Of a stretch of 64,000 nt of DNA, positions 2,718 to 58,660 are shown in pieces. The translations under genes were made by a program, and so were the position numbers. The DNA comes from an uncultured Gammaproteobacteria bacterium. Its GTDB lineage: Bacteria > Patescibacteriota > Patescibacteriia > UBA9934 > GWF2-40-263. The first letter of the stretch is position 1. Each line of letters starts with the position of its first letter. The notes beneath the pieces were generated by a model. It was not told where the DNA came from. It did no database searches and was given only the letters and a program-made list of their open reading frames with translations. The stretch spans positions 3,318 to 67,317 of the forward strand of contig CAYOCD010000004.1 of assembly GCA_964402425.1 (NCBI GenBank), given 5' to 3'.

Positions 2718-3293
2718 TTAACTTCCGTAGGTATAGGCAAGAGCGATCAAGACCCATGGCAAAAAAAATCCGAGCACAGCACCAACAATCACGTCTGAAA
2801 AATAATGAACTCCAACAGCAACACGAGAAAGAGCAACCCAAGCTGCGTAGAAGAAAAATAAAATAACTCCTATCAAGGCTGTTGTTTGTGAAATATGTGA
2901 AATGCTAGATGTCCACCAAGACAAACTTGTGATCGCGAGAAATACGAGCGCAAATGAGAGAGATGTATGTGCTGAAGGAAATGACGGAGTCTTGCACATG
3001 AGTGGAATACGCGCCTCGTAAAGTTTACATTCAAATGGGCGTTTGCGACGAACAAGAAGCTGCAAAAGAAATGTGATAAACCAAACCATTCCTATCATTT
3101 GTACAAACCCAAATATTTGACCATTCGAAATAGGCGTACATAATGGAAAAACGTCTGGCGTGATCAGTACGGTCATGAATCCTAAAACATAAATCGCATA
3201 TCTTGCTCCCACCACAGAAAAAAATAAAAATACAGGCGTTGCATGCGCACGATCGTAAATCCATTTTGAAATAGTATGATCTAGATTTTTCAT
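2718..3293 (-). CDS. PAP2-family phosphatase (undecaprenyl-diphosphatase / PgpB-like membrane protein)
   Basis: KX6RP (RRKRPFE), PSGH-like (SFPSAHTS) and SRX5HX3D (SRVAVGVHYFSDV) motifs; multiple TM segments. Confidence 0.75.
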   Translation of the reverse strand: MKNLDHTISKWIYDRAHATPVFLFFSVVGARYAIYVLGFMTVLITPDVFPLCTPISNGQIFGFVQMIGMVWFITFLLQLLVRRKRPFECKLYEARIPLMCKTPSFPSAHTSLSFALVFLAITSLSWWTSSISHISQTTALIGVILFFFYAAWVALSRVAVGVHYFSDVIVGAVLGFFLPWVLIALAYTYGS

Positions 3294-4003
3294 GTAGCTT
3301 TTTCACGCAATGTTTCCAAAACAGTTTCTCTTCGATCGATATCTGCAAGAATCTCCTCTGCATTTTTTGGCAACACCAAATTCTTTTTCTTAAACGCACA
3401 CGGTTCGCGAACCGGACACGCCCAACAACGCGGGGATCGGATACAAATATATCTTCCAAGTTTTACGAAGACTCGATTCACTGTTTGATGATACCGCGAC
3501 GGAACAAGATCGAGAAGTTTCTGCTCCGCTTCTTCAACTGTTTTCGATCGAACCCAGCCGAGTCGGTTCGTCACACGAAATACGTGCGTATCGACCGCAA
3601 TCGCGGTTTTATCGAACGAACACACAAGCACCACACTCGCCGTTTTTCGTCCGACACCTGCGAGCGTAACAAGCTCGTCCATCGTCGATGGAATCTTTCC
3701 GTCGAACTTTTCCACAACATCCGTCGCCATCTTTTTCAAATTCTTTGCTTTCTGTTTATACATTCCAATCGTGTTGATCTTCGATTCAATCTCGCTCGTC
3801 GTCGCCTTCGACAATTTCTCCACACTCGAAAACGCGTTCCAGAAACCCGGAAGCAACTTCAGAACCTGCTCATCTCGCGTCCGCGCCGACAACATCACAG
3901 CAACAAGATTCTGATACGGACTCCCAAGCTCCATCGCACCCGGATTTGGAAACTGTTTTTTGAGGATTTTAAGCGTGGAGATGATTTGATTCATAGTTGT
4001 CAT
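3290..4003 (-). CDS. nth: endonuclease III (HhH-GPD base-excision glycosylase with a 4Fe-4S cluster)
   Basis: HhH-GPD motif LVTLAGVGRKTASVV and C-X6-C-X2-C-X5-C (CIRSPRCWACPVREPC). The track start ATG is donated by the repeat-element end TGTCAT; the true start may be the internal MNQIIS. Confidence 0.9.
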   Translation of the reverse strand: MTTMNQIISTLKILKKQFPNPGAMELGSPYQNLVAVMLSARTRDEQVLKLLPGFWNAFSSVEKLSKATTSEIESKINTIGMYKQKAKNLKKMATDVVEKFDGKIPSTMDELVTLAGVGRKTASVVLVCSFDKTAIAVDTHVFRVTNRLGWVRSKTVEEAEQKLLDLVPSRYHQTVNRVFVKLGRYICIRSPRCWACPVREPCAFKKKNLVLPKNAEEILADIDRRETVLETLREKAT

Positions 4004-4091
4004 TGCGAGGAGTTCGACGACGAAGCAATCTTGTGTCGATCATGAGAGAAACGCAAAGACGGCTTCGCTTCGCTCGCAATGACACAATTCC

Positions 4092-5672
4092 CTAAACAAG
4101 CGGCTGCCCGGTCATCAGCTCTGGTTGCGGAATACCAAGCACCGTCAAAATGGTTGGCGCGACGTCTGCGAGCATGCCAACCGGTGTCATGAGGGAGAGA
4201 TCGCCATCTGGAACTTCGCCTGCAATACTTGGCTGGCCTTCGAATTGTTTTCCGATAATGATAAACGGAACGGGATTCGTTGCATGTTCTTTATCAATGT
4301 CCCCTGTTCGTAAATTTTTGAGTTCTTCTGCATTTCCGTGATCTGCCGTAATAAACACATACCCTTCACGTGAAAGCGCTGCGTCAACAATCTTTCCAAC
4401 ACACTCATCAATCACTTCAACCGCTTTTTGCGTTGCTGCCATATTTCCTGTATGAGCCACCATATCTGGATTCGCAAAATTCATGGCAATAAAGTCATAG
4501 GCATTTGACTGAATAGCTTTCACCACACGATCTGTCACCTCACGCGCACTCATTTCTGGCGCAAGGTCATAAGACGCAACTTTTGGTGATGGAACAATTT
4601 GTCTGTCTTCTCCTGGAAAAGGTTCTTCCCGCGTACCATTTAAAAAAAATGTAACGTGTGCATACTTCTCTGTTTCTGCAATGTGTAACTGTGTCATGCC
4701 CTTTTCCGAAAACACCTGAGCAAGACATTGCTCGATTTTCTCCGGCGGATAGACAACCTCAACAGGCAAACCACTTTCATACTCCGCCATCGTCACCACA
4801 AACAAATTCTCAACCTGTGTTCGCACAAACGAATCGAACGTCGGCACTACAAAAGCTTTCGTTATTTCACGCATGCGATCCGGACGGAAATTGAAAAAGA
4901 TCACCGCATCATTCTCCGCAACCGTCGCGATAGGTTTTCCATTCTCCGTCATCACGGTTGGAACAAACTGTTCGTCATACACTTCTTTTTGATAAGACAC
5001 TTTCAGGGCATCAAGCGGATCTGCTGCCATTTCTCCTGTCCCGAGCACTATTGCGTTATACGCTTTTTCAATGCGATCCCAACGGTTATCACGATCCATC
5101 GCAAAATACCGACCGCTCATGGAAGCAATCTTTCCGGCACCAATCTCTTTTATTTTATTTTGCAGATTTCCAATGAAATCTATTCCGGCATTATAAATTG
5201 TGTCGCGACCATCCACGATCGCCTGAACATAAACATCTACGATCCCTTGTTGCTTTGCGAACTCTAAAAGCGCATAACAATGTTCATCCATCGCATGAAT
5301 TCCACCCGGACTGATTTGGCCAATTAAATGCAGCTTACTGTTGTGTTTCTTCACATGCTCTGCCGCATCGAGAAGGGCTTGTTTCTGGAAAAAATCTCCC
5401 GCAAGAATATCCCGATTGATACGTGGAAACAATTGATAATACACACGCCCTGCTCCAATCGCGAGATGTCCTACTTCTGAATTTCCCATCTCTCCCCACG
5501 ACAAACCAACTTCTTCCCCAGAAGCTTTAAGCGTCATTGTTGGATACATCCGAATATACGTACGCATATTCGGCATGTCTGCCTGCACGATTGGATTTCC
5601 GTCTGAAGCCGGCGCAACACCAAATCCATCAAGGATCATGAGCACGGTTGGTTTTTTTATTGCGTCAGACAT
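4092..5672 (-). CDS. gpmI: 2,3-bisphosphoglycerate-independent phosphoglycerate mutase
   Basis: Full-length iPGM homology (ADHGNAE motif). The track ORF starts at a TTG at 5708 inside a repeat element; the likely true start is MSDAIKKPTVLMILDG at 5672. Confidence 0.9.
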   Translation of the reverse strand: MSDAIKKPTVLMILDGFGVAPASDGNPIVQADMPNMRTYIRMYPTMTLKASGEEVGLSWGEMGNSEVGHLAIGAGRVYYQLFPRINRDILAGDFFQKQALLDAAEHVKKHNSKLHLIGQISPGGIHAMDEHCYALLEFAKQQGIVDVYVQAIVDGRDTIYNAGIDFIGNLQNKIKEIGAGKIASMSGRYFAMDRDNRWDRIEKAYNAIVLGTGEMAADPLDALKVSYQKEVYDEQFVPTVMTENGKPIATVAENDAVIFFNFRPDRMREITKAFVVPTFDSFVRTQVENLFVVTMAEYESGLPVEVVYPPEKIEQCLAQVFSEKGMTQLHIAETEKYAHVTFFLNGTREEPFPGEDRQIVPSPKVASYDLAPEMSAREVTDRVVKAIQSNAYDFIAMNFANPDMVAHTGNMAATQKAVEVIDECVGKIVDAALSREGYVFITADHGNAEELKNLRTGDIDKEHATNPVPFIIIGKQFEGQPSIAGEVPDGDLSLMTPVGMLADVAPTILTVLGIPQPELMTGQPLV

Positions 5673-5811
5673 ATTGTTTATTTTATAGTGTGTCACCCCA
5701 CACTTCAAAGCAGCCCCCCACGACCGCTACCTGTTTAGTCGAAGGATCTCACGTTGATCATGTGATTCGATGGAAAACTCGAGATTCTTCGCTTCGCTCA
5801 GAATGACACAA

Positions 5812-11998: not shown

Positions 11999-12649
11999 TT
12001 AGAAGATGAATCGTGCAAAACGCTTCACCTGCATGTTTTCTCCGAGGGTAGAAATTTTCTCTTTCAAAAAATCTTCTACGGTTTTTGTATCATCTTTGAT
12101 GAACGCTTGTTCCATGAGAACGGTTTCTGAAAACCACTTGTTCATCTTTCCTTCCATAATCTTCTCAATAACGTCCGCTGGTTTGTTTTGTGCGGCAAGT
12201 TCTCCACGTGTGAGCTCTTGTTCCTTTGCAACAATCTCTGCGGGAACATCTGCACGTGTAAGATACATTGGATCCATGGCACTCACGTGAATAGCAATAT
12301 CGTTACACATTTCAATAAACGCATCGGTACGCGCAACGAAATCTGTTTCACAGAGCACTTGAACCATTGCTCCAAGCTTTGCATTTGAGTGGATGTACGC
12401 ATGCACACGACCTTCATGTGTTTCGCGATCAGATTTCTTACCCGCTTTTGCAATCCCCTTTTTACGAAGATCTTCTGCGGCTTTTTCCATATCACCGTTT
12501 GTTTCTTCAAGAGCACGCTTTGCATCCATGAGTCCGGCTCCTGTTTTTTCACGAAGCTCTGCAACTTGACTTGCTGTAATGGACATATCTTTTTTGGCGT
12601 CATCCCGAACGAAGTGAGAGGTCTTCCTCTTTATCGATCGATCAGACAA
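11999..12649 (-). CDS. tsf: elongation factor Ts (short form)
   Basis: SITASQVAELREKTGAGLMDAKRALEE UBA-like N-terminus; the true start may be the internal MSITAS at about 12586. Confidence 0.9.
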   Translation of the reverse strand: MSDRSIKRKTSHFVRDDAKKDMSITASQVAELREKTGAGLMDAKRALEETNGDMEKAAEDLRKKGIAKAGKKSDRETHEGRVHAYIHSNAKLGAMVQVLCETDFVARTDAFIEMCNDIAIHVSAMDPMYLTRADVPAEIVAKEQELTRGELAAQNKPADVIEKIMEGKMNKWFSETVLMEQAFIKDDTKTVEDFLKEKISTLGENMQVKRFARFIF

Positions 12650-24390: not shown

Positions 24391-24503
24391 GAAGGCTATA
24401 AAGGCGACAAATGCGATAAAGGCTTCTGAAAACGTACATTCTTTTGCGTTTCCCTTCTGCCTTTATTGCCTTTATAGCCTCTATCGCTTCTATAGCCTCT
24501 TCA
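24391..24503. repeat. cluster of GGCTATAAAGGCGA / GCCTTTAT(C/T)GCC motif repeats in inverted arrangement (family 3)
   Basis: Units ggctataaaggcgac, gcgataaaggc, then inverted gcctttattgcc, cctttatagcctc, cttctatagcctc; they lie upstream of rplY. Confidence 0.7.
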
Positions 24504-29650: not shown

Positions 29651-29666
29651 TAAAGTTCTTTAATAA

Positions 29667-29766
29667 GGCCATAGAGGCAATAAAGGCGATAGATGCGATA
29701 AAGGCCGAAGGGGTACTAAGCGCATTCTAAAGCCTCTGTAGCCTTTATCGCCTCTCTAGCCTTCCC
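29667..29766. repeat. family 3 repeat cluster (GGCAATAAAGGCGATAGATGCGATAAAGGCC ... AGCCTCTGTAGCCTTTATCGCCTCTCTAGCC) in inverted arrangement
   Basis: Same motif family as 24391-24503; sits in the secE-nusG intergenic region. Confidence 0.7.
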
Positions 29767-34337: not shown

Positions 34338-34440
34338 TGTCATCCTGAGGAAGTTCGACGACCGAAGGATCTCGCGTTTATAAGTGCTTTATTAACGCGA
34401 GATCCTTCGGCTAAACCTGAAACGGTCGCTCAGGATGACA
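34338..34440. mobile_element. MITE-like palindromic element, family 1 (TIRs TGTCATCCTGAGG / GCTCAGGATGACA)
   Basis: 103 nt with terminal inverted repeats and an internal palindrome gaaggatctcgcgtt...aacgcgagatccttc; it supplies the last codons and stop of folA. Confidence 0.8.
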
Positions 34441-34957
34441 CAGAGTAATGTAAAAGAACTGTTTGTTCGCCGAGCATTTTTGATTCAACGAGTTTGAGCT
34501 TAACATCTCCAAACGATTCCGCAAGCGAAATTCCCTCACCAAACAAAATAGGTTCAATGGTAAGAAAAACATCTGTCACGAGTTGCTCTCGAAGAAACGA
34601 AGAATACACAAAAGAGCCACCACCGATCACAACAGATGTGACTCCCTCTGATTCCAGTCGACGAATCAAATCCACAGGAGCCTCTTCGACAAACTCGAGT
34701 CTTGTTCCGTTTCCATCAGGCGGAACATTCTTTTCCTTCATGGAAGCGTCAAGCGTAAGTACGATCAGTCTTCGACCCTTAAGGGGTTTTCCGATCGTGT
34801 CGAATGTCCGCTGACCCATAATCACCGTCCCTGACTCTTTTGTTTTCTCGATAAAAAATGCCGTGTCTTCTTTTGAAGTCCATTCAAGCGAAGATTGATT
34901 TCGTGATTGTGCGATTTTGCCATTGAGAGATATGGCAGCGATAAGATTGATCTTCAT
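34430..34957 (-). CDS. folA: dihydrofolate reductase
   Basis: DHFR-fold family (MKINLIAAISLNGKIA...), overlaps thyA by 4 nt. Confidence 0.75.
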   Translation of the reverse strand: MKINLIAAISLNGKIAQSRNQSSLEWTSKEDTAFFIEKTKESGTVIMGQRTFDTIGKPLKGRRLIVLTLDASMKEKNVPPDGNGTRLEFVEEAPVDLIRRLESEGVTSVVIGGGSFVYSSFLREQLVTDVFLTIEPILFGEGISLAESFGDVKLKLVESKMLGEQTVLLHYSVSS

Positions 34958-42500: not shown

Positions 42501-43988
42501 TCAAGCAATAGATATTTGTCCTTCCAATATCCACGTTTCTGCTTTTGTTATTTTAACATTCACGATCTCTCCCACCAATTCTTTTCCCCCAACAAATGTC
42601 ACAAGTTTCATTTCGCGAGAGTTTCCAAAACACATTCCAGGCTGTTTCTTAAGCGTCTCTTGAATCTTTTCCGGCATCTTAAGCATTTCATCCGTAATCT
42701 TTGGCGCCTCATGTCTTTCGACAAGCACACTCACAATCTCGCCCACATACTGTTGATTTTTTTTACGTACAACATCTTCCATCACGGCTTGTAATTCATT
42801 CCAACGGCGTTTCTTTTCTTCTTGTGTGACATCATCTTTAAACGCACGCTTTGCCGCTGTGCCTGATCGTTCAGAATAGCGCGCATTGTAGCCGATATCG
42901 AATTTGATATCTCGATACATATCGATCGTCTTTTGAAATTGCTCTGGTGATTCGCCTGAGAATCCAACAATGATGTCCGTACCAATCGCGAGGTTTGGAA
43001 TTTTTGCTCGCAGTCGATCAACAACTTCATGAAACTGTTCGATGGTGTAACGACGATTCATGCGGCGAAGAACTTCATTGTCACCTGCCTGAACCGGAAG
43101 ATGAATAAAGTTTACGTGTGCAGGAAGCGTCATTGCATCAATCACTTCATCTGTCATGTGAAGCGGATGTGGTGCGGTAAAGTGTAGTCGTTTGATTTCT
43201 GGAATCTGGTTTACTTCCCAAAGCAATGCGGCAAAGTGGTTTTCTTTCTGGTCATTGCGAGGAGGAGTCATCGACGACGAAGCAATCTTCGCGTTCGCGG
43301 GGAAAGATTGCTTCGCTGCGCTCGCAATGACAAAAGGATTCCCCACCGAAAAATTCTCCGCATCAGGTGCAAGATAACTATTCACCGTTTGTCCAAGCAA
43401 TGTCACTTCAATACATCCATGTGCGGCAAGATCACGAACCTCATCGAGAATATCTTTCACAGATCGGTTCTTCTCAAGCCCACGCGCAAATGGAACAACA
43501 CAATACGTACAAAACTTATTGCATCCGGTCTGGATAGAGACAAACGCCTGACGAACAGATCGGCGCTCTGGATTAATTTTGAGATAGTCTTCAATCAAAT
43601 CCGTACTGTTCACAAGGTCAGGACGAAGTTCCCCAATCCATCGAGGCAACTGCCCCATATCTGCTGTTGGGAAATACAAATCCACACTCGGAATCTTTTT
43701 ACGAATCACACCATCGCGATCCCGCCCCGCCATGCAACCTGTAATACCAAGAATGAGCTTTGGATTTGTTTCCTTAAGCGCTTCGAATTCATGAACTTTT
43801 CCGAACACACGGTCTTCCGCCTGTTGGCGAACCGAGCATGTATTGATCAAAATCAAATCTGCCTCGGCCGGCATATCGGTCGACACAAACCCAAGCCCAT
43901 GAAGTAAAGCTTCCATGCGCTCCGAATCATTTTTGTTCATCTGACAACCAAATGTGAGGAGATGATATTTTGGTTTTGTATCCAACAT
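42501..43988 (-). CDS. miaB: tRNA-2-methylthio-N6-dimethylallyladenosine synthase (radical-SAM methylthiotransferase) carrying an in-frame repeat-element insertion
   Basis: MTTase N-domain LLTFGCQMN, radical-SAM CNKFCTYC, TRAM C-terminus. There are about 35 extra residues (…FVIASAAKQSFPANAKIASSSMTPPRND…) between the GQTVNSY motif and the next conserved block. Confidence 0.88.
   Translation of the reverse strand: MLDTKPKYHLLTFGCQMNKNDSERMEALLHGLGFVSTDMPAEADLILINTCSVRQQAEDRVFGKVHEFEALKETNPKLILGITGCMAGRDRDGVIRKKIPSVDLYFPTADMGQLPRWIGELRPDLVNSTDLIEDYLKINPERRSVRQAFVSIQTGCNKFCTYCVVPFARGLEKNRSVKDILDEVRDLAAHGCIEVTLLGQTVNSYLAPDAENFSVGNPFVIASAAKQSFPANAKIASSSMTPPRNDQKENHFAALLWEVNQIPEIKRLHFTAPHPLHMTDEVIDAMTLPAHVNFIHLPVQAGDNEVLRRMNRRYTIEQFHEVVDRLRAKIPNLAIGTDIIVGFSGESPEQFQKTIDMYRDIKFDIGYNARYSERSGTAAKRAFKDDVTQEEKKRRWNELQAVMEDVVRKKNQQYVGEIVSVLVERHEAPKITDEMLKMPEKIQETLKKQPGMCFGNSREMKLVTFVGGKELVGEIVNVKITKAETWILEGQISIA
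43251..43332. mobile_element. family 1 palindromic element copy (GTCATTGCGAGG ... GCTCGCAATGACA) inside the miaB reading frame
   Basis: Same TIRs and core as the intergenic copies; on the coding strand it translates in-frame to VIASAAKQSFPANAKIASSSMTPPRND. Confidence 0.8.
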
Positions 43989-44021: not shown

Positions 44022-44034
44022 TGTCATTGCGAAG
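44022..44034. repeat. solo family 1 TIR fragment (TGTCATTGCGAAG)
   Basis: Matches the element terminus; no partner end found nearby. Confidence 0.4.
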
Positions 44035-44099
44035 AACGAAACGGTAAAGTGATCTTTTAGACAAATCGACCAATAAAAAAGACCCCCGAGTAAGGAGTC

Positions 44100-47925: not shown

Positions 47926-47962
47926 ATAAAAAATACACCCACTTGGGTGTATTTTTTATTTA
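47926..47962. terminator. bidirectional terminator (aatacacccacttgggtgtatt)
   Basis: Stem with flanking A- and T-runs between convergent genes. Confidence 0.8.
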
Positions 47963-49705
47963 AACGATTGGAAACTTTGACGCATCAACAGCCTTTGCAA
48001 TAAGTTCGCTTGCGGCAATCATAATGTCTTCTGTTTGTCCGAAGACGTTTACTTTGAAGTCTCCCCCGTCCACTTCTTTCTGTCCGATCACGATCGTCCA
48101 TGGCACTTTCATGGTTGCAGCATCGCGAATTTTCTTTCCGACTTTCTCATTTGAGTCGTCGAGCTCGGCGCGTACTCCGGCTTCGACAAGCTCAGCCAGT
48201 ATTGTTTCCGCGAACGGAATGAATGCTTCACTTACAGTTGCGATGCGCACTTGCGCAGGTGCGAGCCAGAACGGAAAGGCACCGGCGTAATGTTCGATGA
48301 GAACTCCCATGAATCGTTCGACACTTCCGAGAATGGCGCGGTGAATCATGACTGGGCGCTTGATTTGGCCATCTGCATCATGGAACTCTAATTCAAAGCG
48401 CTCTGGAAGGTTAAAATCGAGCTGAACCGTTGCTAATTGCCAATCTCGTCCGATTGCATCTGTTGCAATAAAATCGATCTTTGGTCCATAAAACGCTGCT
48501 TCACCAACACCGAGTTCAAAGTCGCGACCAAGCTCGGTCAACATGTCTTTGAGTGCTGCCACCGCTTTTGTCCAAACCTCTGCCCCACCAAGATATTTCT
48601 CTGGATGTTCTGGATCATCGACGGATAAACGGATGCGAAGTGGCATGCCGAATGCTGCGTAAAATTTTGTGATGATGTCGTAGATCTTCAATACTTCTTC
48701 TTTCACTTGATCTGGGCGAGCAAATACGTGTGCATCGTCCTGTGTGATGGATCGAACACGTGTGAGGCCGGCGAGTTGTCCTGTGTTCTCATCGCGATAC
48801 ACCGTTGTTGCCTCCGCGAAGCGCAACGGCAAATCGCGATAGCTGCGCATCTTGGACGCATAAATTTGCGTGTGATGCGGACAATTCATTGGCTTTAAGA
48901 CAAATTGATCATCGGTCTTTTTACTTGTGACATGAAAAATATCGTCCGCAAATTTGTCCCAGTGACCAGATGTTTTGTAGAGATCGGATTTTGCGATGTG
49001 CGGAATCCACACACGAGAATATTTGTGCGGTTTCATGAGCGCAGTCACAAATCCGGTGAGTGCCTCACGCATGGCGGTTCCGCGCGGAGTGAACATCGGG
49101 AGTCCGGATCCGACGAGCGGTGAATAGGTAAAGAGTTCGAGCTCAGCTCCCAATTTGCGATGATCACGCTTCTTTGCTTCTTCAAGCATCAAAAGGTGCG
49201 CATCGAGTTCCTCTTTCGTTGCAAAAGCCAAACCGTAAATACGTGTCAGCATTTGATTCTTCTCATCTCCGCGCCAATACGCCCCTGCAACTTTCGACAA
49301 TTGAAACGACTCAGGATCCACATCAGAAATTCCTTCATCATGCCCACCACGACAAAGATCTTTAAATGAACCGGATTTGTAGAATGTAAGCGTTTGCCCT
49401 TCTCCAGAAAATTGTTCGATGAGTTCGAGCTTGTATGGATTTGATGAAAACACATTCTTTGCTTCATCCACAGAAACTTCTTCACGATCAAATTTATTCC
49501 ATGATGGAAGAATCTCTCTCATCTTTGTTTGAATCTTTGGAAGATCTTCTTCTGTGATTTGTTTTGAAAATTCGAAATCATAATAAAACCCATCATCAAT
49601 GGCTGGACCAATGGTGCGTTTGGTATCTGGCCAAAGCTCCATAACGGCTGCCGCAAGCAAGTGCGCAAGCGAATGCCTGCGATGTTCTAGTTGATCTTGT
49701 GTCAT
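47960..49705 (-). CDS. thrS: threonyl-tRNA synthetase
   Basis: Class II aaRS core plus anticodon-binding domain. The track start (49720, MTQT...) lies in the repeat TIR; the likely true start is MTQDQLEH at 49705. Confidence 0.9.
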   Translation of the reverse strand: MTQDQLEHRRHSLAHLLAAAVMELWPDTKRTIGPAIDDGFYYDFEFSKQITEEDLPKIQTKMREILPSWNKFDREEVSVDEAKNVFSSNPYKLELIEQFSGEGQTLTFYKSGSFKDLCRGGHDEGISDVDPESFQLSKVAGAYWRGDEKNQMLTRIYGLAFATKEELDAHLLMLEEAKKRDHRKLGAELELFTYSPLVGSGLPMFTPRGTAMREALTGFVTALMKPHKYSRVWIPHIAKSDLYKTSGHWDKFADDIFHVTSKKTDDQFVLKPMNCPHHTQIYASKMRSYRDLPLRFAEATTVYRDENTGQLAGLTRVRSITQDDAHVFARPDQVKEEVLKIYDIITKFYAAFGMPLRIRLSVDDPEHPEKYLGGAEVWTKAVAALKDMLTELGRDFELGVGEAAFYGPKIDFIATDAIGRDWQLATVQLDFNLPERFELEFHDADGQIKRPVMIHRAILGSVERFMGVLIEHYAGAFPFWLAPAQVRIATVSEAFIPFAETILAELVEAGVRAELDDSNEKVGKKIRDAATMKVPWTIVIGQKEVDGGDFKVNVFGQTEDIMIAASELIAKAVDASKFPIV

Positions 49706-49713
49706 ATGCGTTT

Positions 49714-49782
49714 GTGTCATCCTGAGCAGAGCGAAGGATCTCGTGTTAAAAGAAGAGATTCTTCACTGCGTTCAGAATGACA
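49714..49782. mobile_element. family 1 palindromic element (TGTCATCCTGAGC ... GTTCAGAATGACA)
   Basis: TIRs plus a cgaaggatctcgtgtt core; abuts the thrS start. Confidence 0.75.
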
Positions 49783-49784
49783 GG

Positions 49785-49825
49785 AAATAAAAAACCCGAT
49801 TCATCTTAATTAAGTTGAATCGGGA
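49785..49825 (-). terminator. rho-independent terminator (cccgattcatcttaattaagttgaatcggg with a T-run on the minus reading)
   Basis: 10-bp stem; it lies about 200 nt downstream of the 406-aa gene's stop. Confidence 0.65.
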
Positions 49826-50042
49826 TCCATGCAAAAATTGACGGACGGTTCCACCCGAATTGTTGATGCGTTTTCTCTCGCGATCAACCGCTCTTTTGAA
49901 TCAGGATGCTCCAAAGGTTGTACATGTTTATTTGTTGCCTCGAGAACTCACAGCCAAGGTTCTCAATCTCTTTTGGGCAAAGAAACACGCGTGTCCTTCT
50001 TCATTGCCTTTTAAGAATAACTTCCCTGCCATGATCCGTCAA

Positions 50043-51263
50043 CTAATCAAATTCAATGTAAATATGGTCTTTCAGACGCGGAATCTTGTTAAGCCAAAAC
50101 GGAAAGAAATCAACTTTAACAGATTCGGCCACACCGCTTCCTACAAGCGTTTTTGAGACATCATCTGCACTCATTCCCACAAATCGACCAACGTCCAATA
50201 CTTTATTTGTACGAGTAATAATCATCTTTCCGTCCAAGTGCGCACGCAAACTTGCAACTTTTTGGGTAGAATCATATTGTTCGATCGTCACTTCCATGTT
50301 TTCTACGTTTGTTCCAAAAAAATCTTGCCCTTGTCCCAATCCTTCATACAAATGCGATGAGAACAATTGTTTAAATGCGGAACGATCGTAAAAAACTCCT
50401 ATGACAGTAACCGTAAGGGTTACATCATACTCTTTAGATTCTGTGTCTGGTTGAATGCTTGTTTTTTGCTGTTTAACATCTGCAGTAAAGACCTCGCCAT
50501 CAAATCCACTTCCTACCTGTGCGCGCAGCATTTCTTTTGCGTCTGTCATCATTTCTTCTTTCAAGACGTCAACAGATTTTTGCAATTCTTCTTTTGAAAC
50601 AACGGCTACGGTTTGAACACCTCCCGTAAACGCCGTTTTGCTGTCCGCATAAATCTGTGTTTGTTTTGTTTCATTCAGTCCAGGAATGATGAAATGTCCC
50701 GGTGCAACATCTCCTGTTGCTCCTGGTTTATCTGCATGGACCGTTGCATCAACAGTGCCGCCCACTGGTACAACAACGTTTTTATCAAGGCGGAACAACA
50801 CATTTCCCGTTGAGAGCAGTCGTGTTGTCGCAACAAGAGCTTGAGGGGCGTTTGATTTATTGGTGATTGTGACGGTTCCCGCAGCCTTTCCTTCTATTTG
50901 TTTTGCCCCCTCTCCGCTTGGCTTGAAGGATTTTGTTTTATTCATGCTTCCAGAGAGCACTGTCCCACGAATATCTGTTTCATCGAGTGGAATCATGGCA
51001 GTGTGAGCAATCAGATCAGAAGAAAAATCTTTTGCAACCGGCTTAATGCGAATCACGGCTTGCATGGTTGATAAATACATCACAACAAGCAGAACGGCCG
51101 CAACAATCACAATAAATGCAAGGGCAATGCGTCTGTATAACATGAGCGGAACTGCATTTGCGTGCGAGCGCGATACAGGTCTTTCTGTTTCCTCTTTTTC
51201 AGCAACACGAATCACGCGTTTCACGGGAACACGCTTGCGTGTTGCAACTTTTTTTGTGGCCAT
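50043..51263 (-). CDS. hypothetical membrane-anchored protein (N-terminal basic tail plus one TM, large extracytoplasmic domain)
   Basis: 406 aa, Thr/Val/Gly-rich beta-like domain; no family recognised; downstream of dnaE. Confidence 0.55.
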   Translation of the reverse strand: MATKKVATRKRVPVKRVIRVAEKEETERPVSRSHANAVPLMLYRRIALAFIVIVAAVLLVVMYLSTMQAVIRIKPVAKDFSSDLIAHTAMIPLDETDIRGTVLSGSMNKTKSFKPSGEGAKQIEGKAAGTVTITNKSNAPQALVATTRLLSTGNVLFRLDKNVVVPVGGTVDATVHADKPGATGDVAPGHFIIPGLNETKQTQIYADSKTAFTGGVQTVAVVSKEELQKSVDVLKEEMMTDAKEMLRAQVGSGFDGEVFTADVKQQKTSIQPDTESKEYDVTLTVTVIGVFYDRSAFKQLFSSHLYEGLGQGQDFFGTNVENMEVTIEQYDSTQKVASLRAHLDGKMIITRTNKVLDVGRFVGMSADDVSKTLVGSGVAESVKVDFFPFWLNKIPRLKDHIYIEFD

Positions 51264-51305
51264 ATGAGGTTATTATAGCACGAAAGAAGTCAAGGAGTAA
51301 GTAAT

Positions 51306-51435
51306 TGTATCATTGCAAGGAATTCGACGACAAAGCAATCTTTTTTCCGATATCTCGTGGCTTAAAATAAAAGAAGTCACAGACAAAGAAGCGCAAAGAT
51401 TGCTTCGTCGTCGATGACTCCTTCTCGCAATGACA
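51306..51435. mobile_element. family 1 palindromic element, long form (TGTATCATTGCAAGG ... CTCGCAATGACAC)
   Basis: 130 nt with an internal palindrome gaattcgacgacaaagcaatcttt...aaagattgcttcgtcgtcgatgac; sits between the dnaE stop and the next gene's start. Confidence 0.8.
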
Positions 51436-51436
51436 C

Positions 51437-54400
51437 TTACTTCTCTAATTCCACATTCTGTGCACCAACAATACTCGACAACTCTCTCACCAAACTCTCT
51501 GTTGGACTCACGCGATATTCTGTTTCAATACGACGCAGACTTCCACCAGATTCAACAAGCAAACAGACAGGTGTTGCACCAGGTTTTGATTGCAACAAAG
51601 ATCGAACCGCGTCCACCATTTCTGGCGTCGGCTTGCCTTGTAGTTTGATATTCAATGTTTCCTTTTTCTTTTCCAATATTTCCTTTCCGCCTTCTCCGCC
51701 CTTTCCACCATTCCCCGTCACCAAATCCGGATAGGCGAGCCACTGCTCTTTCTTCAGCATCTCAAGAATAACAGACATGTTTTCCTCGCTCACAATCATA
51801 AAACTATTCGCGAGAAGCTTTGCTTCCTCCCCTTCGCGCTTCGAGACCTTTGCGCTCACAAGACAAATCTGCCCCTCGACCATGACATCTTTCACTGTTG
51901 CGAATGTTTTTGGGAACACAATCACCTCTTGTTTGCCGGTCATATCCTCAAGTCCAATGAACGCCATTGGATCTCCTTTTTTTGTAACAATCGTTTTTGG
52001 CAGAAGAATAATTCCACCGGCATACACAAACGACCCATCTTTCTGCGCAGGCAAATCTTTCATATGCATGAGCGTGCCGTCGAGGAATTCGTGAATCTTT
52101 TGATACGGATGACCCGACACATACAATCCGAGCAATTCTTTTTCCCACGCAAGTTGTGTATTCAACTTTGCAGGCTCTGCCGCGCGAAGTGAGATTGTTT
52201 GAGGAATGGTCGACGCAGCGGTCGAGAACAAGCTTGGCTGATTCGTTGTCTTTTCTTTTTGGACGCTCTTGTTGTGCAACAATAAGCGATCAAGGTTTTC
52301 GAGAAGTTGATTGCGTTCTGCAAATCTGTCGAGAGCCCCCGTCTTAATGAGAGCTTCGAGTGACTTCTTGTTAAATGCCCGATGCGCAACACGCGCAACG
52401 AAGTCCGCAAGATCTTTAAAGTCTCCGCCCGCTTTTCGCTCTGAGAGAATCGATTCAATAACTTCTTCTCCCAAGTTCTTAATCACGAGCAATCCAAAGC
52501 GAATATGGTGGTCGTCGAGATAAGTAAAGTTCTTGAGCGATTCATTGATGTCCGGAGGCAAAACTTCAATTTCCATGCGGCGACACTCCGCCACCGCTTC
52601 TGCAATCTTTTCAAGGTCTCCGGATTCCGCGGTCATAAGCGCGGTCATATACTCTGCTGGAAAATTTGCCTTCATGTACGCCGTTTCATACGCAACCATT
52701 CCATAACTTGCGGCGTGTGCTTTGTTGAATCCGTAGGCTGCAAACGGTTCAATCAAATTCCAAAGTTCTTTTGCCTTCTTCTCCGACATTCCGTGCTTCA
52801 ACAATCCTTCATGCAATTTAATTTTTTGCTTTGCCATTTCTTCCGGAATCTTTTTTCCCATGGCCTTGCGCAGCTTGTCCGCCTCGAGCCAGGAATATCC
52901 TCCAAGATGAATCGCAATCAACATGACGTCGTCTTGATAAACAATGACGCCATACGACATGGAAAGGAGATCCTTCATGCGCGGATCCAAAAAATGGATG
53001 AGCGAAGGATCATGTTTGCGTTTGATGTATTCCGGAATGGATTCAATCGGACCAGGACGATACAGCGCAACCATCGCCATGATGTCTTCAATACGTTCTG
53101 GTTTCAGTTCCATGAGATACTTTGTCATTCCGTCTCCATTCAACTGAAACACACCCATCGTTTTTCCGGTTGCAAGCAGTTCAAATGTTTTTTTATCATC
53201 TGTTGGCAGACGATCAATCACCACATCAACCCCTTTTGTTTTTTTCACAAGATGAACCGCATCTCCCAAAATCGACAAGTTGCGAATTCCAAGAAAGTCC
53301 ATTTTGACAAGCCCTGCCGCTTCCACAGCTTTCATTTCATACTGCGTGATCATCTTTCCTTCTTTTGTATCGATTTGTAGAGGGGTAAAATCTGTCAGTT
53401 CTGTTGGAGAGATAACGGTTCCGGCTGCGTGAACAGAAACGTGGCGTGCACATCCTTCAATTTGTTTCGCAAGATCAATCATGCGACGAACGTTTGCGTC
53501 CGTGTCATACATCTTTTTCAAATCTGGCGATTCCTCGAGCGCGCGCGTGAGGGTCATCGGAAATCCTTGCGAACCCATCGGAACAAGTTTGGCCACTACA
53601 TCAACCATACCGTACGGAAAACCAAGAGCACGTCCGACATCACGAACCGAACCGCGCGCAAGCATGGTTCCAAACGTACAGATCTGTGCCACTTTCTCTG
53701 CTCCGTATTTTGAACGCACGTAATCGAGCACTTCATCGCGTCTGTTATCGGCAAAGTCTGCGTCGATATCAGGAGCAGATGGACGCTCTGGATTCAAGAA
53801 ACGTTCGAATGGCAATTTGTAATAAAGCGGATCGATTGCAGAAATATCTGTTGCGTATGCAACAATGGAACCCGCGGCAGATCCACGCGTTGTTGTCACG
53901 ATTCCGTTCTCACGCGACCAACTCAAAAAATCAGACACGATTAAGAAGTACGGACAAAATCCTTTTTGATCAATAATTTCAAGCTCGTAGTTGATGCGAT
54001 CAATCTGCACTTGGGATAATTCCCCACCAACTTTTTCTTTGAGTCCATCGAACGCACGCTCGGTTAACACTCCACGAAACGTCTTCCCTTCTGGAATTTC
54101 AAACTTTGGAAAGTTCCACTTTCCAAGATCAAGTGTAACGTTGCAGCGATCCGCAATCTTGCGCGTATTCTCAATTGCCTCCGGCACGTCCGAGAATCGC
54201 TCAATCATGTACTCCGCAGAAACCATGGACGCGTCAAAGTCAAACTGCGCCATGCGCTCATATTGCTCAAGTGTTTTTTGTCCTTTAATACAATTCAAAA
54301 TTTTCCACGCTTCCACATCACCCGGTTTGAGAAAAAACGTATTCTTTGTCGCGACAACCGGAACATTCATTTCTTTTCCAAGCGCGATCAACTTTGCATT

Positions 54401-55879: not shown

Positions 55880-58273
55880 TTACATTCTCATGATACCACC
55901 AAAATCATTTTCAATCATCTTTTTTATTTTCTCCATCCACACATCCACCTCTTTTGATTCAAGTGTTCGATCTGCAGCACGGAATTCTACACGCACACCA
56001 AGAGATTTCTTTCCCGGATCAATGCCTTTTCCACGATACGTATCGAAGAGTTCAACAGAGACGATCGACGAATCGATTTTCTCGATTGCGCGCTCGATGC
56101 TTGCATATTCTGTGCGATCCGCAAGGACAAACGCGAGATCGCGTTTGACGGATGGAAACTGTGGAAGCGGAACAAATGTTTTTGCTGTTGAAAAATGTTC
56201 AAGGAGTGCTTCAAAATCAAGTTCAAGAATAATCACATTCACATCAAGACCAAATGAGAACTCAACAGAGCGACTCACTTGCCCGATCGTTCCGACTGGT
56301 TTGCTCTCGAGAAGCACGCGCGCCGAACGTCCGGCATGGAAGCGAGACGAATCGACAATGCGATCAAGTTCGATACCCGATACGCCCGTCTCATCAAAAA
56401 GACGCGTGAGAATTCCCTTTGCACGCAAGAATAATTTTTCTGCGTCCGCTTTTCCGTAAACCGCAACGACAAGTCGAAGCGGCTGTTCTGGAAGTTCGTT
56501 AGCGCGTGGAAGATACACCGGCGCGATTTCAAACAAATCCGCTTCCGGAAACACGGCTTGATTCTCGACGATATTCGTCAGCATCGTTGGGACAAGCGAT
56601 GGGCGCATGTACGCCTGGTCGATGCTGAGTGGATTTTTTAAGTGAATTGCATCCTCCGTTTTAAATCCATAATTCGCAAGCTGCTTCTCGGAAACGAAAC
56701 TATAACTATATGTTTCAACAAGCCCCGCACCTTTCAACAATTCCTTTACGCGTGCTTGCCAGACCAATGCACGATCAGACTCGCGAACAGGCGGCGCGCC
56801 GAGTGGAAGGACAGATGGAAAACGATCGTATCCATACACACGAGCAATCTCTTCGACAAAGTCGACCGAAGCCTCAATGTCATGATCGCGCCAGTACGGA
56901 ACGGTGATGTTGTAAGTGTCGCGATGTTTTTTCGCATCGAATCCTAAACGCTCGAGCGTCGCAATCATTTCATCTGCTTCCATTTCAATCCCCATCAAAG
57001 CATTTGCTTTTGTTGGATCGAACGGAAACACACGAGGCTCATACTCGTTTGCTTCAATCATCTCGACAGACGAAACAGCTTTTGGAAATGCAATTTCAGA
57101 CACAAGTTCAATCGCGCGCGCGATTGCAGCGTCTGTGCTCTGCGTCGAGAGCCCCTTCTCGAAGAGCAGCTGCGAATCTGAATACAAGTTCAATGCACGC
57201 GCAGTTCGGCGAACAGACACCGGATTAAACGTTGCAGACTCAATAATAATATTTGTGGTCGATTCCGTCGCACCAGTTTCCTCGCCTCCCATAACTCCCG
57301 CAATCGCGACGGGTTTCGTTGCGTCCGCAATCACAAGCATGTCGGATGTAAGTTTGTACTCTTTTCCATCGAGCGCTTTCATCACTTCCCCTTCAGCTGC
57401 GCGACGAACAACAATCACGCCACCGTCGAGCTTATCCGCATCAAACACATGCAACGGATGTCCGTACTCGTGCAAAACGTAATTTGTAATATCGACAACA
57501 TTGTTGATCGGTTTCAATCCCGCAAGAATCAACTTCTTTTGCAACCACCAAGGTGATGGACCAACGGTAATTCCCTCAAGACGCACGGCGGAATATTTTG
57601 GACAGAGTTCCTTGTCGAGAACACTCACGCGAGGAGCAGGAATCATTCCTTTCCAACCTTTCAAGCTCTTTAATTCTCTGAGTGAACTTCCAACAACGGC
57701 AGCACCTTCTCGAGCTTGACCGATAACAGACATACAGTCCGGACGGTTCGATGTGACTTCAATATCCATCACAACGTCGTCGAGATCAAGCGCCTTCGCG
57801 AGTGAAGTTCCAGCTGGCGCATCTGTGAGTTCTGTCAGATCCCAAATTTCTTTTTCTGCGTGTGGAATCGTCTCGAAACCAACTTCATCCACTCCGCAAA
57901 TCATTCCAAAACTTTTCACGCCACGAAGTGTAGATTCGGTAATCTCAACAAGATCCCCTTCTCCGTGCCAGCGCACTTTCGCGCCTGGCAACGCGACCAC
58001 AACTTTGTGGCCTTCAATCAAGTTTGATCCCCCACACACAATCTCCACAACCGTCTCACCAATATTTACTTCGCACACACGAAGCTTATCCGCATTTGGA
58101 TGCGGCTTCACAACGTTAATCTCGCCGACAACAATATGTGCAAGCATCTTTGCATAATCATGCATGCGCTCCACAGAGTTCCCGGAGTTCGTCGTCTTCT
58201 GCGCAAATTCCTCCACGGTTAAATCCATGTCGAGATATTCTTTGAGCCAATTATAGGAAATGAGGATGTTCAT
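55880..58273 (-). CDS. pheT: phenylalanyl-tRNA synthetase beta subunit
   Basis: MNILISYNWLKEY canonical start, B3/4, B5 and anticodon-binding domains. The track start (58294, MTQEANV) is donated by the repeat TIR. Confidence 0.93.
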   Translation of the reverse strand: MNILISYNWLKEYLDMDLTVEEFAQKTTNSGNSVERMHDYAKMLAHIVVGEINVVKPHPNADKLRVCEVNIGETVVEIVCGGSNLIEGHKVVVALPGAKVRWHGEGDLVEITESTLRGVKSFGMICGVDEVGFETIPHAEKEIWDLTELTDAPAGTSLAKALDLDDVVMDIEVTSNRPDCMSVIGQAREGAAVVGSSLRELKSLKGWKGMIPAPRVSVLDKELCPKYSAVRLEGITVGPSPWWLQKKLILAGLKPINNVVDITNYVLHEYGHPLHVFDADKLDGGVIVVRRAAEGEVMKALDGKEYKLTSDMLVIADATKPVAIAGVMGGEETGATESTTNIIIESATFNPVSVRRTARALNLYSDSQLLFEKGLSTQSTDAAIARAIELVSEIAFPKAVSSVEMIEANEYEPRVFPFDPTKANALMGIEMEADEMIATLERLGFDAKKHRDTYNITVPYWRDHDIEASVDFVEEIARVYGYDRFPSVLPLGAPPVRESDRALVWQARVKELLKGAGLVETYSYSFVSEKQLANYGFKTEDAIHLKNPLSIDQAYMRPSLVPTMLTNIVENQAVFPEADLFEIAPVYLPRANELPEQPLRLVVAVYGKADAEKLFLRAKGILTRLFDETGVSGIELDRIVDSSRFHAGRSARVLLESKPVGTIGQVSRSVEFSFGLDVNVIILELDFEALLEHFSTAKTFVPLPQFPSVKRDLAFVLADRTEYASIERAIEKIDSSIVSVELFDTYRGKGIDPGKKSLGVRVEFRAADRTLESKEVDVWMEKIKKMIENDFGGIMRM

Positions 58274-58286
58274 AACATTTGCTTCT

Positions 58287-58659
58287 TGTGTCATCTCGAG
58301 CGGAGCCGAGAGATCTCACGTTTATAAGTCCATTGCCAAATCCTTTCGTTCTGGATTTATTTCATCAATCAAAAACTCTTTCTTCGCGCGATTCCATTTC
58401 TTTAATTGCTTCTCACGTTCAAGTGCTGAAACCACTTCATTCGTCTGTTCGTAATATACGAGTTTGTTGCAGTTATACTTCGCTGTAAATCCTTCGATCA
58501 TCTTCTCTTTATGTTCAAACACTCTTCTCTGAAGATTATTTGTGACACCGATGTACAAAACCGTATTAACAGGATTAGACATGATGTAAATGAAGTAAGA
58601 ACGTTCGGACATATAAATGTGAGATCCCTCGGCTGCGCTGCGCTTCGCTCGGGATGACA
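58287..58659. mobile_element. composite family 1 element carrying a GIY-YIG nuclease ORF (TIRs TGTGTCATCTCGAGC ... GCTCGGGATGACA), inserted between pheS and pheT
   Basis: The same TIR and core sequences as the short copies (…gagatctcacgtttataag … gagatccctcggctgcgctgcgcttcgctcgggatgaca) bracket a GIY-YIG ORF. Confidence 0.75.
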
Positions 58660-58660
58660 C
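58322..58660 (-). CDS. GIY-YIG nuclease family protein (COG2827/UPF0213-like)
   Basis: YIGVTNNLQRRVFEH GIY-YIG motif. The N-terminal 16 aa (MSSRAKRSAAEGSHIY) are translated from the element TIR; the likely real start is MSERSYFIYIM at about 58612. Confidence 0.8.
   Translation of the reverse strand: MSSRAKRSAAEGSHIYMSERSYFIYIMSNPVNTVLYIGVTNNLQRRVFEHKEKMIEGFTAKYNCNKLVYYEQTNEVVSALEREKQLKKWNRAKKEFLIDEINPERKDLAMDL

What the first reader, a model, noticed from the sequence alone, without database searches (positions are those of the whole stretch)
49703..49720. Element termini supply start and stop codons to host genes (thrS, pheT, nth, gpmI starts; folA stop)
The reverse complement of the TIR end TGTCAT is ATGACA (Met-Thr). 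The longest ORFs of thrS (MTQTHMTQDQ...), pheT (MTQEANVMNILISYNWL...) and nth (MTTMNQ...) all begin with an M-T codon pair read from an element end. A conserved, more plausible start follows 4-7 codons downstream. The gpmI longest ORF starts at a TTG inside element 5691-5808, and its true start is probably MSDAIKK. At folA the last three codons (…SVSS) and the TGA stop are encoded by element 34338-34440. The elements therefore sit flush against gene boundaries and create annotation artefacts or short terminal extensions.
Basis: seen in the sequence. Interest (0 to 1): 0.55.

Follow-up and report, generated by a model that had tools for sequence, protein, structure and literature searches.

The report
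Repeat ends mimic gene start codons
Short hairpin repeats tied to a small ssDNA nuclease (Ssn) fill the tiny gaps between genes in this Uhrbacteria genome; their conserved GTCAT end reads ATGAC on the other strand, giving gene callers false early start codons, and in one gene (folA) the repeat really supplies the last codons and the stop.

Summary
The longest ORFs of thrS, pheT and nth begin at an ATGACA that is the reverse complement of an element end. The gpmI longest ORF begins at a TTG inside an element. folA ends …SVSS-TGA inside an element.

Element-free relatives show that the true starts are the downstream ATGs: 49705 (thrS), 58273 (pheT), 3994 (nth) and 5672 (gpmI). One 93% relative carries the same element at thrS but has TAA directly after the element ATG. 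The folA case is real: the insertion cut off the native …EVV-TGA, which overlapped the next gene's ATG, and replaced it with SVSS-TGA.

The "TIRs" are variant Ssn-related motifs (GTCAT plus hairpin). One copy (58289-58659) carries a 96-aa GIY-YIG ssnA homologue, the SRM–ssnA–SRM architecture described by Chenal et al. 2025. The ATG and TGA are by-products of the conserved GTCAT(CCTGA) motif.

The elements sit flush with genes because native spacers here run from a 4-nt overlap to 12 nt. The extended forms are present in public gene calls.

This is an ordinary annotation artefact plus one small genuine C-terminal replacement. The in-frame copy inside miaB is the more interesting side observation.

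The parts
49703..49720 (-). The finding itself: element-end ATGACA (49720-49715), a 9-nt spacer CAAACGCAT, and the true thrS ATG (49705-49703).
49715..49782 (.). E6, a 68-bp inverted SRM pair lying between the T-box terminator and thrS.
   Evidence: An orthologous copy is present in L010.
47960..49705 (-). thrS CDS from the conserved start (581 aa).
49818..50013 (-). T-box leader of thrS. Its terminator hairpin ends about 5 nt before E6.
   Evidence: RF00230, 53.4 bits, E=5e-11, below the gathering score.
58289..58659 (.). E8, a 371-bp SRM-ssnA-SRM element between pheS (stop 58668-58670) and pheT.
58322..58612 (-). ssnA-like GIY-YIG gene (96 aa).
   Evidence: PF01541, 1.5e-16.
55880..58273 (-). 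pheT CDS from the conserved start MNILISYNWL (797 aa).
3998..4084 (.). E1, an 87-bp SRM pair filling the gpmI (stop 4092-4094) to nth spacer. The gpmI-side arm is partly degenerate.
3290..3994 (-). nth CDS from the conserved start MNQIISTLKIL (234 aa).
5691..5808 (.). E2, 118 bp, between the eno stop (5812-5814) and the gpmI ATG (5672). The gpmI-side arm is degenerate.
4092..5672 (-). gpmI CDS from MSDAIKK (526 aa).
34338..34440 (.). E3, a 103-bp SRM pair. It supplies folA's last codons and its TGA (34430-34432), and separates folA from the deaminase-like gene (ATG 34318).
34430..34957 (-). folA (175 aa) with the element-derived C-terminus SVSS*.
43250..43332 (.). E4, an 83-bp SRM pair inserted in frame in miaB (42501-43988, minus strand). 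It adds 28 aa, VIASAAKQSFPANAKIASSSMTPPRNDQ.
51308..51435 (.). E7, a 128-bp SRM pair 1 nt after the dnaE stop (51437-51439) and upstream of the promoter of the 406-aa gene.
12598..12625 (+). Solo degenerate SRM 11 nt upstream of the tsf ATG (12586). The tsf longest ORF (TTG 12649, 216 aa) reads through it.
44022..44060 (+). Half-element (one SRM arm) upstream of the miaB start (43988).

Best explanation
The window comes from a Candidatus Uhrbacteria (Patescibacteria) genome. It is colonised by short inverted pairs of Ssn-related motifs (SRM). Each arm is (T)TGTCAT, then a 5-bp stem (ATCCT, ATTGC, ATTCT, ATCTC or ATCCC), an 11-25 nt loop, the complementary stem, and a C. One copy still carries the ~95-aa GIY-YIG ssDNA-nuclease gene ssnA between its arms. 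The others are gene-less derivatives.

Native intergenic spacers in this compact genome run from a 4-nt overlap to about 12 nt. The only insertions that survive therefore sit exactly at stop/start junctions, or at a tolerated in-frame site as in miaB.

The conserved GTCAT of the motif matters for Ssn cleavage in Neisseria. On the opposite strand it reads ATGAC, so every pair presents an outward-facing ATG at both ends. The CCTGAG variant reads TCA TCC TGA in one inward frame.

Where the ATG happens to be in frame with the gene downstream, longest-ORF logic and several public gene callers add 3-7 spurious codons. Translation most probably starts at the conserved downstream ATG, because the element ATG is predicted to be paired at the base of the arm-arm hairpin in the mRNA.

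At folA the insertion landed three codons before the native stop. The protein therefore really ends in element-encoded (S)VSS-TGA. The orphaned native codons GAG ATT GTA TGA now serve only as ribosome-binding site, spacer and start for the next gene.

Shown here: the coordinates, the orthologue boundaries, the presence/absence polymorphism and the ssnA association. Inferred: which ATG is used in vivo, element mobility, and Ssn being the mobilising enzyme.
For: - Coordinates and ORFs.
- Organism: ThrS hits are named Uhrbacteria.
- thrS: 120 orthologues start at the second ATG. L010, a 93% relative with the same element, has ATGACA-TAA. Relative P0370 has a non-conserved MTHKY spacer.
- pheT: L004 lacks the element and has TAG-T-ATG MNILISYNWL. 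L007 has the ssnA element plus ~190 nt of other sequence, then the same start.
- nth and gpmI: L015/L020 read TAG-TTT-ATG MSDIVATLKIL, L022 has an ATGA overlap, and L014 has eno TAA + 12 nt + MSDAIKK.
- folA: orthologues end LLHYEVV. Empty site L012 reads CATTAC|GAGGTTGTATGATC. The filled window site retains GAGATTGTATGATC after the element. The same insertion occurs in L011.
- RNA folds pair the element AUG with the opposite arm and leave the true AUG unpaired. thrS: -31.5 kcal/mol, z -3.1. nth: z -2.9. folA: z -9.4.
- The GIY-YIG gene matches PF01541 at 1.5e-16.
- Homologues at 51-63% identity across many phyla are flanked by TGTCAT-hairpin inverted repeats, including canonical NTS-like TTGTCATTCCCGCGSAGGCGGGAATCCAG.
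- The published description of Ssn, SRM and the NTS-ssnA-NTS architecture is PMC11893778.
- Extended forms exist in public gene calls.
Against: - The window's arms do not match the published degenerate SRM search pattern (0 hits). Their loops are much longer than in NTS.
- No SD motif precedes either candidate start of thrS, pheT or nth, so ribosome-binding-site evidence cannot discriminate between them.
- The outward ATG/GTG is in frame in 4 of 7 cases. The frame is also kept at nth in L018 (MTKGMKDQ) and at thrS in P0370, which leaves room for some use of the upstream ATG.
- No expression or proteomic data are available.
- Mobility and the role of Ssn are inferred only from presence/absence polymorphism.
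Confidence: 0.8

Rival explanations
1. The element-supplied ATG is a genuine or alternative start codon, so ThrS, PheT and Nth really carry short Met-Thr-led N-terminal extensions in this lineage.
For: - The ATG is in frame with no intervening stop in three genes.
- The frame is kept at nth in L018 despite a 3-nt longer spacer, and at thrS in P0370.
- No SD favours the downstream ATG.
- Gene callers chose the long form on most contigs.
Against: - L010 has a TAA directly after the element ATG at thrS.
- The spacer codons are not conserved: QTH, HKY or stop.
- Element-free relatives start at the downstream ATG.
- The element AUG is predicted to be sequestered in a stable stem.
- In-frame frequency of 4 of 7 is not significant.
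Confidence: 0.13
2. The hairpins are not insertions. They are native junction elements (terminators, mRNA stabilisers or processing sites) selected at operon junctions, and the start/stop overlaps reflect co-evolution with gene ends.
For: - Relatives carry other, unrelated palindromes at the same junctions: after dnaE, before thrS, between eno and gpmI.
- The elements fold stably.
- The same insertion at folA persists in a FolA only 66% identical overall.
Against: - Close relatives (84-93% identity) have clean empty sites with overlapping or 1-12 nt spacers.
- The same repeat family occurs inside miaB and flanks a nuclease gene whose homologues are flanked by such repeats across phyla.
- No T-run follows the hairpins, so they are not intrinsic terminators.
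Confidence: 0.07

Closest known systems
Ssn nucleases and their Ssn-related motifs (SRM/NTS, including part of Neisseria dRS3); Chenal et al., Nat Commun 2025, PMC11893778
   Same: - A single-domain ~95-aa GIY-YIG protein, with Tyr-Tyr-Glu spacing as in the N. meningitidis catalytic residues Y6/Y17/E64.
- The gene is flanked on both sides by inverted hairpin repeats that begin HGTCAT and have a C directly after the palindrome.
- Many gene-less copies are scattered at gene borders.
- Homologues of the window protein in other phyla are flanked by near-canonical NTS.
   Different: - The window arms have 5-bp stems with 11-25 nt loops and fail the published degenerate SRM pattern.
- The copies occur as tight inverted pairs, like MITEs.
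- One copy is in frame inside an essential-type gene, whereas NTS are reported to be rarely intragenic.
- The host is a CPR bacterium.
- The paper does not report any start- or stop-codon effects.
Rickettsia palindromic elements (RPE) and other intragenic MITEs (ERIC, BOX, QMITE1), as reviewed in PMC10969869
   Same: Short palindromic repeats that can be read through and make in-frame fusions with host ORFs. The miaB copy and the folA C-terminus are of this kind.
   Different: - There is no sequence relationship.
- Most copies here are intergenic at stop/start junctions.
- The elements are associated with a GIY-YIG nuclease.
- RPE are not known to carry a coding partner.
REP/BIME with RAYT (IS200/IS605-like Y1 transposase), e.g. 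PMC2817692
   Same: Hairpin repeats dispersed in intergenic regions, with a single small nuclease gene flanked by inverted copies of the repeat. No target-site duplication is seen at the empty/filled sites compared here.
   Different: The enzyme is GIY-YIG, not HUH/Y1. Transposition activity has not been demonstrated for Ssn.
Neisseria Correia elements (from memory; not tested here)
   Same: TIR-bounded ~100-150 bp repeats at gene borders whose ends carry functional-looking signals and alter the annotation or expression of neighbours.
   Different: Correia ends supply promoter boxes and duplicate a TA target. Here the ends supply an ATG and a TGA, and no duplication is evident.

Membership tests
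Ssn nuclease / SRM repeat system (cd10448 GIY-YIG) | Single-domain GIY-YIG protein of about 94 aa. | tested here: met
   The ORF 58322-58612(-) is 96 aa. PF01541 matches at 1.5e-16 and covers nearly the whole protein. More than 8000 homologues of 90-100 aa were found.
Ssn nuclease / SRM repeat system (cd10448 GIY-YIG) | Catalytic Tyr, Tyr and Glu (Y6, Y17, E64 in the N. meningitidis enzyme). | tested here: inconclusive
   Read from the translation: Y9, Y20 and E67 have the same 11- and 47-residue spacings. No N. meningitidis sequence was available to align, and no CDD model could be run.
Ssn nuclease / SRM repeat system (cd10448 GIY-YIG) | Gene flanked 5' and 3' by inverted hairpin repeats. 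| tested here: met
   The arms are 58289-58317(+) and 58659-58621(-). The same holds in many of the 80 GTDB homologue loci.
Ssn nuclease / SRM repeat system (cd10448 GIY-YIG) | Repeats match the published degenerate SRM pattern HGTCWYN(0-2)YYVSBRHN(0-5)WNVSBRGN(0-2)RNCYNB. | tested here: not met
   There are 0 matches in the window, while 25 of 80 GTDB ssn loci have at least one. The window loops are 11-25 nt, against 5 nt or fewer allowed by the pattern.
Ssn nuclease / SRM repeat system (cd10448 GIY-YIG) | Oriented motif: conserved GTCAT upstream of the palindrome, and a C immediately after it. | tested here: met
   Eleven element arms fit TGTCAT + 5-bp stem + loop + complementary stem + C, followed by T then C or T (relaxed scan).
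Ssn nuclease / SRM repeat system (cd10448 GIY-YIG) | Site-specific cleavage of ssDNA only, a few nt 5' of the motif. | not testable with these tools
   This is a biochemical assay, reported for four homologues in PMC11893778.
Classical MITE (non-autonomous derivative of a DDE insertion sequence) | Terminal inverted repeats, small size, no coding capacity. | tested here: met
   The elements are 68-128 bp with inverted arms.
Classical MITE (non-autonomous derivative of a DDE insertion sequence) | Target-site duplication flanking the insertion. | tested here: not met
   Empty/filled comparisons at folA, pheS-pheT, gpmI-nth and eno-gpmI and miaB show no duplication of 2 bp or more.
Classical MITE (non-autonomous derivative of a DDE insertion sequence) | Parent element encoding a transposase with matching TIRs. 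| tested here: inconclusive
   The matching-end parent encodes a GIY-YIG nuclease (E8), not a known transposase. Mobility is unproven.
RPE-like in-frame palindromic elements | Inserted in frame within protein-coding genes, adding a peptide segment. | tested here: met
   One copy in miaB adds 28 aa. L007 has 43 aa at the same site and L004 has none. The other copies are intergenic.

The most novel reading that the evidence does not exclude
SRM pairs and SRM-ssnA-SRM units in CPR bacteria are active, ssDNA-mobilised (IS200/IS605-like, duplication-free) elements. Under this reading they preferentially land just 3' of T-rich TA-containing sites such as TAA/TAG stop codons. Their fixed outward ATG and inward TGA then let them split overlapping gene pairs, or sit inside genes, without killing them, so the codons are part of what makes the element tolerable rather than a pure by-product.
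Probability: 0.12. Interest if true: 0.6.

Novelty: new member of a known kind. Interest (0 to 1): 0.3.

Why it matters
There are three practical consequences.

- Public gene calls for this Uhrbacteria lineage carry wrong N-termini. ThrS is called at 586 instead of 581 aa, PheT at 804 instead of 797, Nth at 237 instead of 234 and Tsf at 216 instead of 195. Any genome rich in GTCAT-type Ssn repeats will show the same bias.
- An Ssn-type repeat can replace the last codons and the stop of an essential gene, and can uncouple an overlapping gene pair (folA and the deaminase-like gene). It can also sit in frame inside miaB.
- These cases extend what is known about where such repeats are tolerated, and they do so in a candidate-phyla-radiation (CPR) bacterium.

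None of this opens a long-standing question. The start-codon part is an artefact, which is useful to know but ordinary.

Tried and rejected
- Rfam at gathering threshold found nothing in the window. Only a sub-threshold T-box appeared, with permissive settings. The element's weak mir-515 hit is noise.
- No tRNA is present.
- A PDB sequence search with the GIY-YIG protein gave no hit.
- The published SRM regular expression gave 0 hits in the window.
- I looked for a conserved insertion target in 33 non-redundant arm flanks. They are T-rich and often end TTG, with a stop codon 1-8 nt away in several cases, but there is no convincing consensus. The TA/stop-codon target idea therefore stays a hypothesis.
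- In-frame enrichment of the outward ATG (4 of 7) is not significant.
- FolA P0146, ending …DIPSS*, looked like a second independent SRM-supplied stop. Its DNA (CCGTCGTCCTGAGCAACGCG, overlapping a convergent gene) is not a clear SRM. I dropped it.
- DNA for the 91% FolA relative P0122 could not be fetched. Only its gene coordinates were available, and they show a 4-nt overlap and no element.
- A literature search for GIY-YIG together with MITE gave only eukaryotic and viral papers. The relevant paper was found through 'GIY-YIG' plus 'dRS3'.

Full report
**Observation**

The 18 bases 49703-49720 read on the minus strand as ATGACA CAA ACG CAT ATG. The first ATG is the reverse complement of TGTCAT 49715-49720. 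That hexamer is the left end of a 68-bp inverted-repeat element, 49715-49782.

- thrS: the longest ORF is 47960..49720.
- pheT: the longest ORF is 55880..58294, and TGTCAT 58289-58294 is an element end.
- nth: the longest ORF is 3290..4003, and TGTCAT 3998-4003 is an element end.
- gpmI: the longest ORF is 4092..5708, and its TTG lies inside element 5691-5808.
- folA: 34430..34957 ends TCT G|TG TCA TCC TGA inside element 34338-34440.

The repeat family is well above chance.
- 43250-43332, inside miaB;
- 51308-51435, 1 nt after the dnaE stop;
- a half-copy at 44022;
- a solo arm at 12598-12625, next to tsf.

**Which starts are real**

ThrS homologues identify the organism as Candidatus Uhrbacteria, a member of the Patescibacteria. 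Of 120 listed orthologues, almost all are 577-582 aa and begin M-x-x-(x)-[EQ]QLEH. That corresponds to the second ATG at 49705.

A 93% relative (L010) carries the same element at the same place but reads ATGACA TAA ATG CAT ATG ACA CAA, so the extension is closed by a stop codon. Another relative reads MTHKY where the window reads MTQTH. The spacer therefore evolves like non-coding DNA.

For pheT, relative L004 has no element. Its pheS TAG is followed by one T and then ATG AAT ATT CTC, which gives MNILISYNWL. L007 has the GIY-YIG element plus about 190 nt of another repeat, then the same start.

For nth, relatives at 92% GpmI identity read gpmI TAG-TTT-ATG, giving MSDIVATLKIL. L022 has an ATGA overlap. 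The window's true start is therefore ATG 3994, giving MNQIISTLKIL.

For gpmI, L014 has eno TAA, 12 nt, then MSDAIKK.

RNA folding of the minus-strand transcripts pairs the element AUG with the opposite arm at the base of a stable hairpin. The conserved AUG is left unpaired. No Shine-Dalgarno motif precedes either candidate start in these genes, so that criterion does not help.

The outward ATG/GTG is in frame in 4 of 7 element-gene junctions. That is not significantly more than one third.

Public gene calls do carry the artefact.

| Protein | Extended form in public calls | Form from the conserved start |
|---|---|---|
| ThrS | 586 aa, on 7 contigs | 581 aa, on 1 contig |
| PheT | 804 aa, the only form on record | 797 aa, not on record |
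| Nth | 237 aa, on 2 contigs | 234 aa, on 9 contigs |
| Tsf | 216 aa | 195 aa |
| GpmI | 538 aa, not on record | 526 aa, the only form on record |

**folA is a real case**

Orthologues end …LLHYEVV. Element-free L012 reads CAT TAC GAG GTT GTA TGA TCG, with the folA TGA overlapping the ATG of the next gene, which is deaminase-like. The 91% relative P0122 shows the same 4-nt overlap in its gene coordinates.

In the window the sequence is CAT TAC TCT G, then the element, then GAATAATAAAG GAG ATT GTA TGA TC. The element was therefore inserted between TAC and GAG. As a result:
- folA now terminates at the element's TGA as …HYSVSS;
- the old terminal codons survive downstream, where they act only as SD (AAAGGAG), spacer and start for the next gene.

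The same insertion, with a near-identical gene-proximal arm, is present in L011 (HYTVSS) and presumably in P0124. The tail after LLHY is variable in length and sequence among orthologues, so the change is probably neutral.

**What the elements are**

The copy between pheS and pheT (58289-58659) contains a 96-aa GIY-YIG ORF (PF01541, E=1.5e-16). Its homologues number in the thousands, at 51-70% identity across many phyla.

In many of 80 GTDB loci the gene is flanked by inverted repeats that begin (T)TGTCAT and are followed by a short hairpin. These include TTGTCATTCCCGCGSAGGCGGGAATCCAG.

This is the Ssn/SRM system described by Chenal et al. 2025 (PMC11893778). Its features are:
- SsnA is a ~94-aa GIY-YIG enzyme that binds the oriented hairpin motif NTS (CGTCATTCCCGCGMAVGCGGGAATCYRG) only as ssDNA, and cuts a few nucleotides upstream of it.
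- The bases just 5' of the palindrome govern cleavage.
- The C just 3' of the palindrome governs binding.
- The NTS-ssnA-NTS layout resembles an insertion sequence.

Every intact arm in the window has the form TGTC-AT(xxx)-loop-(xxx)AT-C. However, the loops are 11-25 nt and the published degenerate pattern finds none of them. I therefore treat them as a long-loop SRM variant, not as proven members.

**Why the elements are flush with genes**

Empty sites in relatives have spacers ranging from a 4-nt overlap to 12 nt. Any surviving insertion must therefore abut a stop and a start.

No target-site duplication is visible at five empty/filled comparisons. Flanks are T-rich and often end TTG, and several lie 1-8 nt from a TAA or TAG. 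Thirty-three non-redundant flanks gave no firm target consensus.

**Context at thrS**

Reading along the minus strand, the order is:
- a promoter-like site at 50042-50014;
- a T-box leader at 49818-50013 (53.4 bits, E=5e-11, below Rfam's gathering score);
- the leader's terminator hairpin;
- the element;
- thrS.

Relative L007 has an unrelated ~160-bp palindrome at the same spot. L004 has neither a leader nor an element.

**Verdict**

The ATG and TGA are by-products of a conserved nuclease-recognition motif. The start-codon cases are annotation artefacts, and the folA stop is a genuine but minor C-terminal replacement.

The element type was published in 2025, so this is a new member, or a long-loop variant, in a CPR host. 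The more notable side finding is the in-frame 28-aa copy inside miaB. L007 has a 43-aa copy of another variant at the same site, and L004 has none.

Noticed in passing
window 43250-43332 (within miaB 42501-43988, minus strand); L007 17573-17685: An SRM pair is inserted in frame in MiaB. It adds 28 aa (VIASAAKQSFPANAKIASSSMTPPRNDQ) between the two halves of the radical-SAM region. Relative L007 has a 43-aa insert from a different SRM variant at the same codon position, and L004/L005 have none.
   Followed up: partly
window 12598-12625 and tsf 11999-12586 (minus strand): A solo degenerate SRM arm (CGTCATCCCGAACGAAGTGAGAGGTC) lies 11 nt upstream of the tsf ATG. The longest ORF (TTG 12649, 216 aa) reads through it, and a spurious out-of-frame ORF (12283-12603) starts at its ATGACG. 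Both the 216-aa and the 195-aa forms are in public gene calls.
   Followed up: yes
window 49818-50013 (minus strand): A T-box leader lies upstream of thrS, scoring 53.4 bits (E=5e-11) against Rfam's gathering score of 93. The terminator hairpin CCCGATTCA…TGAATCGGG(T)6 follows at about 49787-49826. The leader is conserved in L007 and absent in L004.
   Followed up: partly
window 49697-49705 and 49712-49720: The 9-mer TTGTGTCAT occurs twice, 6 nt apart. The true thrS start ATGACACAA is identical to the extended element end. This could be chance, a relic of an earlier arm, or microhomology at the insertion site; I did not resolve which.
   Followed up: partly
window 24393-24498 and 29665-29763: A second type of intergenic palindrome, built from 9-mer units (ATAAAGGCG/ATAGAGGCA) in inverted arrays, lies just upstream of gene starts. 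One example sits between secE and nusG.
   Followed up: no
L004 8558-8698; L015 about 2380-2490; L007 205-392 and 9830-9990: Relatives carry other, unrelated palindromic repeats at exactly the junctions where the window has SRM pairs (dnaE downstream, eno-gpmI, pheS-pheT, thrS leader). The types are AAGTGAAAG-unit hairpins, GTCACAAATTGTGAC units and a TTGTAAAAACGCATCGAC-TIR element. These junctions are hot spots for several repeat families.
   Followed up: partly
window 51261-51300 (minus strand): The 406-aa gene (50043-51263) has TTGACT-17 nt-TATAAT ending 8 nt before its ATG. The -10 box and ATG spacing are conserved in L004 and L007, which looks like a leaderless transcript.
   Followed up: no
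L011 532-1128 versus window 34338-34957: FolA in L011 is only 66% identical overall to the window protein, but about 90% identical in the last 40 residues, and it shares the same element insertion. This suggests recombination that transferred the 3' end of folA together with the element between lineages.
   Followed up: no
window 58322-58660; L007 1-162: The ssnA gene suffers the same artefact as its neighbours. Its longest ORF starts at a GTG in its own upstream SRM (112 aa in the window, called as 118 aa in relatives), whereas the conserved protein is 96 aa.
   Followed up: partly
L060 about 1644-1670; L067 235-328: Near-canonical NTS-type motifs (CGTCATTCCCGCGAAGGCGGGAATCCA) occur in other Patescibacteria contigs fetched through gpmI. 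Both NTS-like and long-loop variants therefore exist in CPR genomes.
   Followed up: no
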